Made by a program: the position numbers and the translations under genes
Part shown: positions 51,174 to 55,411 of the stretch, one piece after another
Position numbering within the stretch: position 1 is the first letter of the stretch
How the letters are laid out: every line of letters begins with the position of its first letter
The notes under the pieces: generated by a model
Told to the model about the DNA's origin: nothing
Database searches by the model: none
What the model saw: the letters and a program-made list of their open reading frames with translations, nothing else
NCBI RefSeq assembly: GCF_017348835.2
Contig: NZ_CP071375.1
Strand: one strand, 5' to 3'
DNA from: Escherichia coli
GTDB taxonomy: Bacteria > Pseudomonadota > Gammaproteobacteria > Enterobacterales > Enterobacteriaceae
Length of the DNA stretch: 64,000 nt

Positions 51174-51444
51174 AATGTTACCGTAATATGTGAGTATCCA
51201 TCGACTAGACACTAAGCAAAAAAGCTCCCGAAGGAGCCTTCATTTTCACTTTCTTAAATCTAACGACAGATGGCTAACATTTAAGTATTGTGAAATATTA
51301 TCAAATGTAATCATCATTGATTTACAAAAGATACATTTTGCCCCGAAAGGATTTCTGTCAGAAACATCAAAAGATGATGTTCTATACTGAGAACCATGGC
51401 AACACGGGCATCTAAAGTGAATATGGTTTGTAATATTTTCTACC

Positions 51445-51657
51445 TCAAAGTGCCACTACATGAACAGCTGCAGGGCCTTTAGGTCCGTTCTCAATACCAA
51501 ATTCGACTTCCTGATTCTCAGTTAACGTTTTGAAATCGTTGCTCTGAATAGCTGAGAAATGCACAAACACATCTTTGCTACCATCTTTCGGCGTGATGAA
51601 ACCAAAACCTTTTTCAGGGTTAAACCATTTCACTAAACCAGTCATTTTGTTAGACAT
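51445..51657 (-). CDS. cspI: Cold-shock protein
   Basis: 70-aa cold-shock-domain ORF ([21 protein letters not shown]...). Confidence 0.9.
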
Positions 51658-52020
51658 CATTATTACCTTTTGAAGAAGTTAGCCCTTGGGCAGAATGGTC
51701 CGAAAAAAAATATCAGAGAGAAAAACCAACAAGGAAATCTCAAGAGGTACAAATAATAAAATTATAACAATGACTGCTTCAGATAATTTTGTAACAAACC
51801 AGAACACCATTAACGCATGATTAACCAACCATAGCAAGGATTACTTTTGTAAAGAAAAACACACGAATGAAACAATAGCTTTATTTATTAATAAAACGTG
51901 TCATTCTGTCTAATGACCTTTTATCTTACCCTTAAGATTTCAAGGATTTTGACTCATGGAAGAGTCCTTTTTATTTAAATTTCACATTCAGCGCTAAAAA
52001 TAATCCGATTTAATATTAAT

Positions 52021-53050
<1,030 letters not shown>

Positions 53051-53163
53051 GGATATTTATCAGGATTTATCGGCTTCAAATCCCCGGATATGTTAAATCT
53101 TACCTCACCAGTGATGGGCACTGGCGGGAGGAGGATGTCAATCTGATAAACACAGAGGTGACT

Positions 53164-53424
53164 ATGGATTACACAAATCTACCAAAACAAACTTTTGCTG
53201 ATTTAATCGCACTCAGGCAAGCAGTCGTAGCTCTAATCAACTTGTTGCCGGAGAAGGAAAAGGAATTAGTTAAAGCGCTTCTTAACAGAACTGCCGCCGA
53301 TTTTTCATCATATCCACTGACAGATGACCTTGCGGACCTTCCTGAATTAATTGCAGCGTCCGCCATTAAGCTTACTGAAGAGATTTACCCTCCTCAAAAA
53401 TCTTCACAAAATTCCTGCGAGTAA
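53164..53424 (+). CDS. Hypothetical acidic protein on the opposite strand inside the lysis cassette
   Basis: 86-aa ORF from ATG at 53164, preceded by AGAGG at 53153-53157; helical acidic sequence; no homologue recognised. Confidence 0.4.
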   Translation: MDYTNLPKQTFADLIALRQAVVALINLLPEKEKELVKALLNRTAADFSSYPLTDDLADLPELIAASAIKLTEEIYPPQKSSQNSCE

Positions 53425-53923
53425 CTTCAATGCAATAATCGTAAAACGCCGCAAACTGCTCATCGCGGCGTTTTTTTTCATCTTCAGAAGGAATCAGCAC
53501 CGACAATTTTTTATTCAGATCAGCGACGCTGCCCTCCAGTTTTTCAATGGGCGATTCAATATCATCTTTTTCTGACCGCAATGCCGTCGGTGGCGTCTTC
53601 AGAGAACCAGTAATTCTTCCCGGTAGCTTTCCTTTGTAGGTTATCCACACATTCTGCGCCTCTAAAATTATGGGGCGCTTTTCCGGCGACTGCTCATCCC
53701 CTTCACATAACCCGGCAGCAACATCCAGGAAGACCTGTCTGATGCTCATTCTGGCTGCTGCCTCATAAAACTCCAGCGCGGCACCTTCAACACGGTCCAG
53801 CGAGATGTCCAGGTCAAAAATTTCACCGTCAAAGCGTTCTTTGTCCTGTAATGCTAAAGTTACCGTAACTTTATTCTCAAAATTGCGGATCCCTTTCACA
53901 ATCAGTTCATAGTTTTGAGTCAT
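53372..53923 (-). CDS. Prophage protein between holin and endolysin (YdfR-like position)
   Basis: 183-aa ORF; same position as K-12 ydfR, but that gene is recalled as shorter. Confidence 0.5.
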   Translation of the reverse strand: MTQNYELIVKGIRNFENKVTVTLALQDKERFDGEIFDLDISLDRVEGAALEFYEAAARMSIRQVFLDVAAGLCEGDEQSPEKRPIILEAQNVWITYKGKLPGRITGSLKTPPTALRSEKDDIESPIEKLEGSVADLNKKLSVLIPSEDEKKRRDEQFAAFYDYCIEVTRRNFVKIFEEGKSLQ

Positions 53924-53927
53924 TGAA

Positions 53928-54143
53928 TTACTCTCCTCTCGCAGCCTTACGCCTGTCTTCTTTAATCTTGAAATAAAGATTTGTCAGATACGTCAGCAGG
54001 CCAAAAACCAGGCTACCCAGCACACCGATTGCAGCCCACTGTGACGGAGTTACTTTATCGAGTAACTGCAATGCCCAGAAACCAGCATTACCCGCCGATG
54101 TGCCATAGGCAACACCTGTTGTTAACTTATCCATTGATTTCAT
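53928..54143 (-). CDS. essQ: Holin (phage-21 S-type pinholin-like)
   Basis: [71 protein letters not shown]; two TM helices and a charged C-terminus. Confidence 0.85.
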
Positions 54144-54617: not shown

Positions 54618-54897
54618 AGATTGTGGTGCTTTTTGTGGGAGTCATCCACTTACGCACTTTGTTTTGCCATGCCAGCAGTTAGCTTCTGCTGTAAAACTAT
54701 TCATGCAGCAAACCTGCACTTCACCACAATGGTTAGCATACTTTTCCTGATTAAGATTTTGCCAAATATGCTGGCCATTGTTTCATGTATTGGACCTCCT
54801 TAATTTTCATTAAAGAGATCCAATATTCACTACTCTGTCCGTATCTCTACTCAGGCATCAGCCTTCTTCGTTATCGTATACAGACGAGCGATGAATT

Positions 54898-55113
54898 TTA
54901 ATCAGTAATGATGACATTTGCTGCTGCAGGACCTTTAGCACCACTCTCTATAGAGAAGGTAACCTTTTGACCTTCAAATAAGGTTCGATAATTATCATTC
55001 TGAATCGCAGAAAAATGCACAAACACATCTTTACTACCATCAACAGGAGAAATAAAGCCGAAACCTTTATCAGCGTTAAACCATTTTACTAAACCAGTCA
55101 TTTTATTTGACAT
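54898..55113 (-). CDS. cspB: Cold-shock protein
   Basis: 71-aa cold-shock-domain ORF. Confidence 0.9.
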
Positions 55114-55411
55114 TCTACATTCCTTAACTTGAGCCTTTCGGCATAAATGGTTTGCATAACAGAAACGACTTCGTACTTAATTGGAGAGACTCAAAGAAGG
55201 AATAAGTGAATAACACCTGAAATGAGAACTGCTTTAGTAAACTACTTCGTATATCGTCTGTTCTTCAAACCGACGCAGTCATTAACTCATAGTTGAACAT
55301 ATGAAGCAATGTTTATTTTAGACATCCAGCCACCTTCAACCCTATCAAAAAAGTAGTTTTCTCCAGGAACGTGTGTATGGTGCACCAGGTTATCAGTATT
55401 AAGGAGTTTTT

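What the first reader, a model, noticed from the sequence alone, without database searches (positions are those of the whole stretch)
53164..53424. Unassigned 86-aa ORF on the opposite strand inside the lysis cassette
It has a well-spaced AGAGG ribosome-binding site and protein-like composition (acidic, helical, no low-complexity runs). It lies between the endolysin start and the holin-proximal gene and overlaps that gene's 3' end on the other strand. I do not recognise a homologue. Opposite-strand genes in lysis cassettes are usually morons or lysis modulators.
Basis: seen in the sequence. Interest (0 to 1): 0.45.

Follow-up and report, generated by a model that had tools for sequence, protein, structure and literature searches.

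The report
Small antisense accessory gene in lysis cassette
The 86-codon reading frame is most likely a real but uncharacterised small prophage gene, and it sits in a swap-in slot inside the lysis genes where related phages carry at least seven unrelated small genes behind the same upstream sequence.

Summary
The ORF is exactly as described: ATG 53164, TAA 53422-53424, AGAGG five bases upstream. It lies between a frameshifted endolysin and a 183-aa YdfR-family gene, whose 3' end it overlaps by 53 nt.

Length alone means nothing here, but comparison supports a gene.
- Three clades (41-57% identity; E. coli and Fels-1-like contigs) keep the frame, start position and Shine-Dalgarno site.
- The antisense frame with coinciding third positions is also open. 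Codon usage, dN/dS (0.25-0.28 vs 0.35-0.50) and substitution scores all favour the plus frame.
- It is already catalogued without function (PHROG 2572; RefSeq WP_001306174.1). Pfam, NCBIfam, PADLOC, PDB and fold searches gave no relatives.

The gene looks like a moron.
- It is absent from K-12 Qin and AT-rich.
- A hairpin plus T-run follows it, inside the convergent gene.
- An ~85-nt leader with a lac-like promoter motif (TTTATC-N17-TATGTT) precedes it.
- In other prophages the same leader fronts at least seven ORF families with no detectable mutual similarity; variants without a plus ORF lack it.

Promoter activity, expression and function are untested. My working guess is a prophage-expressed small binding protein used in phage or host conflict. 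Interest is moderate.

The parts
53164..53424 (+). 86-aa ORF, the finding itself: PHROG 2572, identical to RefSeq WP_001306174.1. Acidic, with three predicted helices.
   Evidence: Conserved in three clades. The plus frame is favoured over the antisense frame.
53154..53158 (+). Shine-Dalgarno site AGAGG (extended AGAGGTGA), five bases before the ATG.
   Evidence: The other two clades have TAAGGA six bases before their ATG or GTG. Every other cargo family in the slot also has a GAGG/AAGG-type purine-rich site, one family a weaker one, 6-8 nt before its ATG.
53053..53126 (+). Conserved leader shared by all plus-ORF-bearing variants of the slot. It starts 2 nt after the endolysin start codon.
   Evidence: The first 21 nt are present in all variants. 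The rest is present only where a plus-strand ORF follows. One exception is L093, which keeps the TATGTT box but has no ORF.
53066..53094 (+). Promoter-like motif TTTATC-N17-TATGTT. This is inferred, not shown.
   Evidence: Kept in all three clades of this family and in six other cargo families. It is replaced or lost in variants without a plus ORF. It falls below the threshold of the consensus scan. From my own knowledge, the -10 hexamer equals that of the wild-type lac promoter.
53108..53124 (+). Leader hairpin CCAGTG-ATGGG-CACTGG, which would lie near the 5' end of the presumed transcript.
   Evidence: The sequence is conserved across cargo families but shows no compensatory change, so a structural role is unproven.
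53443..53478 (+). Hairpin AAAACGCCGC-N12-GCGGCGTTTT followed by more T. This terminator-like element lies 18 nt after the stop, inside the coding region of the convergent gene.
   Evidence: (-15.4 kcal/mol, z -3.2). Present in all three clades. One arm is missing from the homologous 297-aa YdfR variant that has no plus ORF. Only one compensatory pair was found, which is not significant.
53372..53923 (-). Convergent late gene of 183 aa. It has a YdfR-family N-terminal domain (residues 1-113) and a C-terminal tail, and its last 53 nt overlap the ORF.
   Evidence: The tail is homologous to a free-standing 73-aa gene in L053/L061 and to the C-terminus of a 243-aa gene in L065.
53061..53717 (.). 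Segment with no counterpart in K-12 Qin, which has 92 nt in its place. It holds the leader, the ORF, the hairpin and the 3' two thirds of the 183-aa gene.
   Evidence: homology breaks at 53060 and 53718.
52515..53050 (-). SAR-type endolysin (rrrQ-like). In this window it is broken by a 2-bp insertion at 52715-52716.
53928..54143 (-). Class II holin (essQ-like, 71 aa), the first gene of the cassette.

Best explanation
The ORF is a real protein-coding accessory gene of the moron type. It sits in a hypervariable slot of the lysis cassette of lambdoid prophages.

Shown:
- The ORF, its ribosome-binding site and its start position are conserved in three clades. The codon-level signal favours the plus strand.
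- The unit is missing from close relatives.
- It is preceded by a leader that is shared with at least six other ORF families showing no detectable similarity to it. Variants without a plus ORF lack that leader.
- It is followed by a hairpin plus T-run inside the convergent late gene.

Inferred:
- The leader holds a weak sigma-70 promoter, TTTATC-N17-TATGTT.
- This promoter drives a roughly 380-nt monocistronic transcript that ends at the hairpin.
- The transcript is made mainly while the prophage is repressed. During lytic growth, antiterminated late transcription runs through the unit in the opposite direction and would interfere with it.
- The product is an 86-aa acidic, helical, probably cytoplasmic protein without enzyme motifs, so it most likely acts by binding another protein.

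Speculative:
- Unrelated cargoes are swapped behind one leader. By analogy with other variable phage loci, the targets are therefore likely to belong to phage-phage or phage-host conflict, such as exclusion of superinfecting phages or inhibition of a host factor.
For: Gene reality:
- Full-length PHROG 2572 match.
- Annotated by NCBI's annotation pipeline.
- Exhaustive phmmer found distant relatives of 89-93 aa that are encoded in the same orientation and with the same overlap.
- The Shine-Dalgarno site and the start codon are conserved in position.
- The codon-usage log-likelihood favours the plus frame by +5 to +17 in every clade. True genes with an open antisense frame always scored above 0.
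- Between clades, dN/dS is 0.25-0.28 in the plus frame against 0.35-0.50 in the antisense frame, and BLOSUM sums are higher for the plus frame.
- Differences by codon position follow pos2 < pos1 < pos3.
- The antisense peptide has no PHROG family.
- The ORF is intact in 45 of 47 loci, similar to its neighbours. The loci were selected through the ORF, so this figure is biased.

Moron anatomy:
- Absent from K-12 Qin.
- 43% G+C against 50% for the window's long ORFs.
- Hairpin plus T8 located 18 nt after the stop, with one arm missing in the homologous variant that has no plus ORF.

Slot:
- The leader fronts PHROGs 2572, 2411, 1853-like, 18136, 25324 and 21218, plus a 210-aa ORF. Each ORF starts 103-132 nt from the leader's start and has its own ribosome-binding site.
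- Variants without a plus ORF lack the TATGTT box and the leader hairpin.
- The leader is present in 1441 of 5426 complete E. coli genomes.
- The unit is carried by plaque-forming phages: 2H10, PhiR63_1, the PhiR12 series and PhiR5_1.
Against: - There are no expression data of any kind.
- The promoter motif matches only 7 of 12 consensus positions and was not called by the scan.
- Among close variants dN/dS is 0.3-0.8, and it is no lower in the plus frame than in the antisense frame.
- Eight of 54 sequences (the window plus 53 loci) carry ATG->ACG at the start; one has a frameshift and one is interrupted.
- AlphaFold2 confidence is only moderate (pLDDT 66.5, pTM 0.38). It is not much better than the antisense control (59.6, 0.27).
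- Covariation in both hairpins is weak or absent.
- Only about half of the cargo families show a clear terminator.
- No homology or fold match points to any function. The proposed conflict role rests on analogy alone.
Confidence: 0.55

Rival explanations
1. Lysis modulator. The protein tunes lysis timing by binding the holin, the SAR endolysin or the YdfR-family protein. Alternatively, its convergent transcription lowers endolysin expression.
For: All observed positions of this family and of the slot lie in or beside a lysis cassette.
- Between the YdfR-like gene and the endolysin.
- After Rz and a 73-aa gene.
- Upstream of a holin in a different cassette.

Helix 1 is fairly hydrophobic, with a Kyte-Doolittle maximum of 1.6-1.9. 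The promoter-like motif abuts the endolysin start codon.
Against: - It is on the strand opposite to the late operon, so it cannot be co-expressed from the late promoter.
- It has no similarity to any known holin, antiholin or lysis regulator.
- D13, R18 and Q19 are invariant inside helix 1, which argues against a membrane span.
- The other cargo families in the slot are unrelated and less hydrophobic. That is unexpected for one shared lysis function.
- K-12 Qin, Fels-1 and many other cassettes lack it.
Confidence: 0.15
2. Cis-antisense RNA. The functional product is the plus-strand transcript itself. It pairs with the late mRNA across the 3' end of the YdfR-like gene, and the ORF is secondary.
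For: - Convergent 53-59-nt overlap with the late gene is kept in all three clades.
- The hairpin lies inside the late gene.
- The leader is conserved more strongly than the cargo.
Against: - The ORF, its start and its Shine-Dalgarno site are conserved down to 41% identity, with dN/dS about 0.27.
- Every cargo family brings its own ribosome-binding site and an ORF of 79-210 aa.
- No Rfam family matches here.
- An antisense effect could still exist alongside the protein.
Confidence: 0.1
3. No function. The ORF is a chance or decaying frame, either a shadow of a minus-strand gene or a remnant carried along by recombination between conserved flanks.
For: - The antisense frame is open as well.
- Shadow ORFs of this size are common.
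- Constraint among close variants is weak.
- The start codon is lost in a sub-lineage.
- The distribution is narrow: about 6% of E. coli genomes and no hit in one genome per species.
- AlphaFold2 does not separate the two frames well.
Against: - All frame-specific tests favour the plus strand in all clades.
- The antisense ORF has no conserved start or ribosome-binding site, and its ends vary: 59-115 aa.
- The plus ORF keeps its length (86-93 aa), start and Shine-Dalgarno site through near-saturated synonymous divergence (dS 1.2-1.6).
Confidence: 0.15

Closest known systems
Lambda bor, the classic moron next to the lysis genes (from my own knowledge: Barondess and Beckwith; Hendrix's moron concept)
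   Same: A small gene beside or within the lysis region. It is transcribed opposite to the late operon, is presumed to have its own promoter, and is absent from some related phages. In L053/L061 the family sits after Rz and a 73-aa gene, in the region where bor lies in lambda.
   Different: Bor is a lipoprotein with a signal peptide and a known phenotype (serum resistance). This protein has no signal peptide or lipobox and no sequence similarity to Bor. Its expression in lysogens is not shown.
Hotspots of variable cargo between conserved flanks in P2-like phages and P4-like satellites (Rousset et al. 2022, PMC9122126, listed; I read only its abstract)
   Same: Conserved flanks enclose interchangeable, mutually unrelated cargo at a fixed position in a temperate phage genome.
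   Different: As far as I know, those hotspots carry larger, often multi-gene anti-phage systems. Here each cargo is a single ORF of 79-210 aa, none matches PADLOC, and no defence phenotype is known.
PHROG 2572 / RefSeq WP_001306174.1 and WP_071528021.1 (hypothetical proteins)
   Same: The window protein is a full-length member (E 1.2e-53) and is identical to the annotated RefSeq protein.
   Different: These entries carry no function, so membership adds only that the ORF is already catalogued.
T4 RIII, a small cytoplasmic lysis-inhibition cofactor (from my own knowledge)
   Same: A small (about 80 aa), helical, soluble protein associated with a lysis system.
   Different: There is no sequence or fold match in these searches. 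RIII is expressed with the phage programme, whereas this ORF is antisense to the late operon. The resemblance is only in size and predicted class.

Membership tests
Moron (autonomous accessory transcription unit in a prophage) | Extra gene lying between two genes that are adjacent in related phages | tested here: met
   K-12 Qin has ydfR overlapping rrrQ, with 92 nt where the window has 657 nt. In the viral contigs carrying the motif, 29 loci have no plus ORF in the slot; the examples examined show a short YdfR gene next to the endolysin.
Moron (autonomous accessory transcription unit in a prophage) | Own promoter | tested here: inconclusive
   TTTATC-N17-TATGTT is conserved in front of seven cargo families and lost where no plus ORF follows. 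It is below the threshold of the consensus scan, and its activity is untested.
Moron (autonomous accessory transcription unit in a prophage) | Own terminator | tested here: inconclusive
   A 10-bp hairpin plus T-run lies 18 nt after the stop (z -3.2). One arm is absent in the homologous variant without the ORF. The T-run is weak in two clades and there is only one compensatory pair.
Moron (autonomous accessory transcription unit in a prophage) | Base composition different from the neighbouring phage genes | tested here: met
   The ORF is 34-43% G+C in the three clades, against 50% for the window's long ORFs.
Moron (autonomous accessory transcription unit in a prophage) | Expressed from the repressed prophage | not testable with these tools
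   No transcript or ribosome data are available here, and no paper in the held library names the protein.
PHROG 2572 | Full-length match to the family profile | tested here: met
   Residues 1-86 match profile positions 1-86 at E 1.2e-53. The distant clades match at 3.5e-27 and 8.5e-40.
Known lysis regulators (antiholins, T4 RI/RIII, P1 LydB and the like) | Encoded on the late strand and co-expressed with the holin | tested here: not met
   The ORF is on the strand opposite to the holin, the YdfR-like gene, the endolysin and Rz.
Known lysis regulators (antiholins, T4 RI/RIII, P1 LydB and the like) | Sequence or fold similarity to a characterised regulator | tested here: not met
   No lysis-category PHROG, NCBIfam or Pfam family matches. 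No fold match was found.
Pfam DUF1823 (the GenBank label of the homologue in the PhiR12 and PhiR5_1 phage records) | Significant match to PF08853 | tested here: not met
   The independent E-value is 0.24 over 39 residues. The label in the phage records is not supported.
Known anti-phage defence proteins (PADLOC-DB 2.0) | Match to a defence-system profile | tested here: not met
   No family matches at E <= 0.1 for this protein, its two distant clades or the neighbouring genes. The other cargo families have no match below E 0.005.

The most novel reading that the evidence does not exclude
The finding is one cargo of a previously undescribed hypervariable antisense slot in the lysis cassettes of E. 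coli and Salmonella lambdoid prophages.

In this reading, one conserved promoter-leader, present in about a quarter of complete E. coli genomes, drives whichever of at least seven unrelated small proteins has been swapped in. These proteins form a reservoir of prophage-expressed effectors for phage-phage or phage-host conflict, such as superinfection exclusion, anti-defence or host takeover.
Probability: 0.3. Interest if true: 0.7.

Novelty: new member of a known kind. Interest (0 to 1): 0.5.

Why it matters
Taken alone, the ORF is one more hypothetical prophage protein that is already in the databases.

What adds value is its setting. A short conserved leader abuts the endolysin start codon and occurs in 1441 of 5426 complete E. 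coli genomes. It is followed by interchangeable small ORFs with no detectable mutual similarity, all of unknown function, on the strand opposite to the late operon.

In phages, loci with fixed flanks and swapped cargo have repeatedly turned out to hold defence or counter-defence genes.

If the leader is an active promoter in lysogens, this slot offers a compact set of candidates: seven families, each a single ORF of about 80-210 aa. They could be tested by simple expression and phage-challenge assays. It would also show that the interior of a lysis cassette, usually seen as a tight late operon, can host lysogen-expressed genes.

Tried and rejected
- **Antisense shadow.** The minus-strand frame 53169-53366 (65 aa) has third codon positions that coincide with those of the plus ORF, and it is open in all clades. 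I tested it as the true gene. It was rejected on codon usage, dN/dS, BLOSUM sums, lack of a conserved start or ribosome-binding site, and lack of a PHROG family. dN/dS among close variants and AlphaFold2 did not discriminate.
- **Remnant of a longer YdfR gene.** The 297-aa variant (PHROG 1085, L067) fills the slot. By eye, its C-terminal ~110 aa show no similarity to the antisense translation of the window's region. This was not tested by a formal alignment.
- **Homology and function searches that gave nothing.** NCBIfam, Pfam (best hits ABATE 0.093 and DUF1823 0.24), PADLOC, PDB sequences (best hit AcrIIC4 at E 0.33, which is noise), Foldseek against PDB, BFVD and AFDB50 (58, 59, 95; only self-hits), and Rfam at the locus (34).
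- **One genome per species.** The scan found no relative.
- **A 975-aa eukaryote-like repeat protein (P0019).** It matched in the exhaustive search. This is a repeated short helical motif and was dismissed as compositional.
- **Functional pairing with the C-terminal tail of the convergent gene.** Considered unlikely, because the same tail and hairpin also follow an unrelated 210-aa cargo, and the tail exists without any plus ORF in the 297-aa variant.
- **Common ancestry of the cargo families.** hhalign probabilities are below 1%. A shared 'LLP' motif at residues 26-29 in three families remains unexplained.
- **Covariation support for the two hairpins.** One compensatory pair in the terminator hairpin, which is not significant; none in the leader hairpin.
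- **Literature.** No paper in the held library names the protein, its accessions or its PHROG. General searches on morons and hotspots gave nothing on this slot.

Full report
**What is in the sequence**

The window carries a Qin-like lambdoid prophage of E. coli. Its lysis cassette is on the minus strand and contains, in order:
- holin, 53928-54143;
- a 183-aa YdfR-family gene, 53372-53923;
- a SAR-type endolysin, 52515-53050;
- Rz/Rz1, 52021-52518.

The plus-strand ORF runs from the ATG at 53164 to the TAA at 53422-53424, 86 codons. AGAGG lies at 53154-53158, five bases upstream. The ORF overlaps the last 53 nt of the 183-aa gene.

Length alone is not evidence. The same 6 kb holds several unannotated ORFs of 86-129 aa. 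In addition, 11% of 66-codon windows in the window's long ORFs have an open antisense frame.

**It is already catalogued, without function**
- The protein matches PHROG 2572 over its full length (E 1.2e-53).
- In a genome identical over 53050-53560, NCBI's annotation pipeline annotates it as hypothetical protein WP_001306174.1. A 93% DNA variant is WP_071528021.1.
- The exact sequence occurs on at least 1000 contigs.
- It is found in 352 of 5426 complete E. coli genomes.
- Eight deposited phage records (seven distinct phages) carry it, including plaque-forming phages: 2H10, PhiR63_1, the PhiR12 series and PhiR5_1.
- NCBIfam, Pfam and PADLOC give nothing significant. The 'DUF1823' label in the PhiR12 and PhiR5_1 records is not supported (E 0.24).

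**Distant relatives**

A word-indexed search found only near-identical E. coli proteins and one Salmonella fragment. An exhaustive phmmer search of 1.84 billion representatives added two diverged relatives: P0020 (93 aa, 57% identity over the matched stretch) and P0021 (89 aa, 41%).

I recovered their genomic settings.
- **P0021 type.** It occupies the same place as in the window. It lies between a YdfR-like gene (243 aa in L065) and a nearly identical endolysin, in a few E. coli genomes.
- **P0020 type.** It lies after Rz and a free-standing 73-aa gene, before the small terminase subunit. The contig's terminase is 97.6% identical to that of Salmonella phage Fels-1. Fels-1 of strain LT2 itself lacks the module.

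In all three clades the ORF is on the strand opposite to the late genes. It overlaps the 3' end of the convergent gene by 53-59 nt. It starts at the same aligned position and has a Shine-Dalgarno site: AGAGGTGA in the window, TAAGGA in the others.

**Which strand is coding?**

The minus-strand frame 53169-53366 is also open in all clades. Its third codon positions coincide with those of the plus ORF, so three-base periodicity cannot decide. I therefore used tests that depend on the frame.

| Test | Plus frame | Antisense frame |
|---|---|---|
| Codon-usage log-likelihood (model from the window's long ORFs) | favoured by +5 to +17 in all four test sequences (three clades) | – |
| dN/dS between clades | 0.25-0.28 | 0.35-0.50 |
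| BLOSUM62 sums (three clade pairs) | 161 / 144 / 177 | 142 / 82 / 140 |
| G+C at codon positions 1 and 2 (window) | 0.55 and 0.35, as in real genes (0.57 and 0.41) | reversed |
| Conserved start and ribosome-binding site | yes | no; length varies 59-115 aa |
| PHROG family | 2572 | none |

- As a calibration, real-gene windows with an open antisense frame always scored above 0 on the codon-usage test (mean 19.8, minimum 2.5).
- Differences by plus-frame codon position follow pos2 < pos1 < pos3: 18-20, 21-30 and 32-36.

Two tests did not discriminate.
- Among close variants, dN/dS is 0.3-0.8 and is no lower in the plus frame.
- AlphaFold2 gives pLDDT 66.5 and pTM 0.38 for the plus product, with three helices at residues 8-26, 30-48 and 56-74. 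An antisense control with an equivalent alignment gives 59.6 and 0.27.

There are signs of decay. ATG has become ACG in 8 of 54 sequences (the window plus 53 loci), one locus has a frameshift and one is interrupted. Overall intactness is 45 of 47, similar to the neighbouring genes, but those loci were selected through the ORF itself.

My reading is that this is a real, fast-evolving, moderately constrained protein gene.

**Anatomy of the unit**

Homology with K-12 Qin stops at 53060 and resumes at 53718. K-12 has 92 nt in place of these 657 nt, and there ydfR (103 aa) overlaps rrrQ.

The ORF is AT-rich: 43% G+C in the window and 34-39% in the other clades, against 50%.

Eighteen bases after the stop lies the hairpin AAAACGCCGC-N12-GCGGCGTTTT, followed by more T (53443-53478; -15.4 kcal/mol, z -3.2). 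It sits inside the codons of the convergent gene.
- It is present in all three clades.
- L056 has GCCACC/GGTGGC, one compensatory pair that also changes the amino acids of the overlapping gene.
- The covariation is not significant, and the T-run is weak in the two distant clades.
- A homologous 297-aa YdfR variant has no plus ORF and lacks exactly one arm of the hairpin, a 15-nt gap.

**The slot**

The sequence just upstream of the ORF is conserved even in the Fels-1-like context, where no endolysin is adjacent. Scanning viral contigs for its first 21 nt returned more than 120 loci. One hundred of them had enough flanking sequence to examine.

The plus strand then carries one of at least seven ORF families. 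Each starts 103-132 nt after the leader's start and has its own purine-rich Shine-Dalgarno-like site:

| Family | Length (aa) | Loci |
|---|---|---|
| PHROG 2411 | 90 | about 36 |
| PHROG 2572 (this finding) | 86-93 | 6 |
| PHROG 1853-like | 104-105 | 12 |
| PHROG 18136 | 91 | 5 |
| PHROG 25324 | 98 | 1 |
| PHROG 21218 | 79 | 1, plus a truncated copy in L069 |
| ORF without a PHROG | 210 | 4 |

- All families are of unknown function and have no significant PADLOC or NCBIfam match.
- Profile comparisons of the three families tested (PHROGs 2411, 1853-like and 18136) against PHROG 2572 found no relationship.
- All ORF-bearing variants share an ~85-nt leader. It contains TTTATC-N17-TATGTT (window 53066-53094) and then a hairpin-forming stretch, CCAGTG-N5-CACTGG in most families and a different hairpin in the PHROG 2411 type.
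- Variants without a plus ORF keep only the first 21 nt and lose the TATGTT box and the hairpin. These are 29 loci with no ORF in the slot (the examples examined have a short YdfR gene next to the endolysin) and 6 with the 297-aa YdfR. One locus, L093, keeps the box without an ORF and looks like a deletion.
- The first 47 nt of the leader occur in 1441 of 5426 complete E. coli genomes, and the full leader in 408.
- Clear terminator-like hairpins follow the stop in about half of the families.
- In L069 the same leader and cargo sit upstream of a different lysis cassette (two holins and an M15 peptidase). A textbook terminator lies inside the convergent gene.

**How it most likely works**

Shown: a conserved ORF with its own ribosome-binding site; presence or absence among relatives; a shared leader tied to the presence of a plus ORF; and a hairpin with a T-run.

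Inferred:
- The leader is a weak sigma-70 promoter. From my own knowledge, its -10 hexamer equals that of the wild-type lac promoter. The consensus scan did not call it.
- It gives a monocistronic transcript of about 380 nt ending at the hairpin.
- The unit is active mainly in the repressed prophage, because antiterminated late transcription would collide with it during lytic growth.
- The protein is small, acidic (pI 4.6) and helical, has no enzyme motif and has no clear membrane span. It would therefore act by binding a partner.

Speculative: swapping unrelated cargoes behind one leader resembles known conflict loci, so the target may be a competing phage or a host factor.

**Rivals**
- **Lysis modulator.** Supported only by location. 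It is contradicted by the strand and by the lack of similarity to any known regulator.
- **Cis-antisense RNA.** The convergent overlap fits, but the ORF and ribosome-binding-site conservation in seven families argues that proteins are made.
- **Non-functional frame.** Weak recent constraint and the start-codon loss fit, but all frame tests and the deep conservation argue against it.

**Comparison with known systems**

The closest analogue is lambda bor, a small gene beside the lysis genes that is transcribed against the late operon. The P2/P4 hotspots with fixed flanks and variable cargo (PMC9122126) are the closest analogue for the slot.

The ORF is a member of PHROG 2572. It meets two of the five moron criteria I could list (presence or absence among relatives, and composition). 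Two are inconclusive (promoter, terminator) and one could not be tested (expression).

It is not a member of DUF1823, of any PADLOC family, or of any known class of lysis regulator.

**Verdict**

The gene itself is a new, uncharacterised member of a known kind (a moron) and is already in the databases.

The slot around it is the more interesting result. I found no description of it in the literature I could search.

Noticed in passing
window 53053-53126, and loci L068-L189: The leader upstream of the ORF is shared by at least seven plus-strand ORF families with no detectable mutual similarity, in lysis cassettes of other prophages. These are PHROGs 2411, 2572, 1853-like, 18136, 25324 and 21218, plus a 210-aa ORF. 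Variants without a plus ORF lack its TATGTT box and hairpin. The first 47 nt of the leader are in 1441 of 5426 complete E. coli genomes.
   Followed up: yes
window 52715-52716: The endolysin gene carries a 2-bp insertion (TA) relative to the intact rrrQ of a closely related genome (L001). This splits it into two ORFs, 52619-53050 and 52515-52790, so this copy of the prophage probably cannot lyse its host.
   Followed up: partly
window 53372-53923 (minus): The 183-aa gene is a mosaic. Its first ~69 residues are shared with K-12 YdfR and its first 113 residues match the YdfR profile. K-12 YdfR residues 1-72 were reported to bind the catalytic half of RNase E and possibly RNA (PMC13232886). The gene also has a 70-residue tail that exists as a free-standing 73-aa gene after Rz in Fels-1-like contigs. 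NCBI's annotation pipeline flags the gene as an incomplete YdfR pseudogene in an identical genome.
   Followed up: partly
L067 (E. coli ST131 strain 2822), L068, L065, and K-12 L003: YdfR-family genes come in at least five lengths: 103, 114, 183, 243 and 297 aa. They share an N-terminus and have different 3' parts. Recombination breakpoints cluster at a few positions (window 53475, 53508, 53531, 53587). The family is in 2378 of 5426 genomes.
   Followed up: partly
residues 26-29 of three cargo families (window protein: L27-L28-P29): PHROG 2572, PHROG 18136 and the PHROG 1853-like family all have 'LLP' at nearly the same distance from the N-terminus, after a hydrophobic helix. hhalign sees no homology. 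A remote common origin and chance have not been told apart.
   Followed up: partly
window 51399-51815 and 54882-55274 (minus): Two full-length matches to the cspA thermoregulator RNA family (RF01766; 110 and 159 bits) lie upstream of the prophage cold-shock genes cspI and cspB, which flank the lysis cassette.
   Followed up: no
L190 (E. coli B derivative NEBExpress, Rac-like prophage): This laboratory B strain carries the sister cargo PHROG 2411 (WP_000370546.1) behind the same leader, between a 114-aa YdfR gene and rrrQ. If BL21 carries the same locus, its public expression data could test the shared promoter.
   Followed up: no
L017-L023, L025 and L052 (viral contigs): A sub-lineage has ACG instead of the ATG start, leaving only the in-frame GTG that lies inside the ribosome-binding site. 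L052 also has a frameshift. The same sub-lineage has a 21-nt deletion in the tail of the convergent gene.
   Followed up: partly
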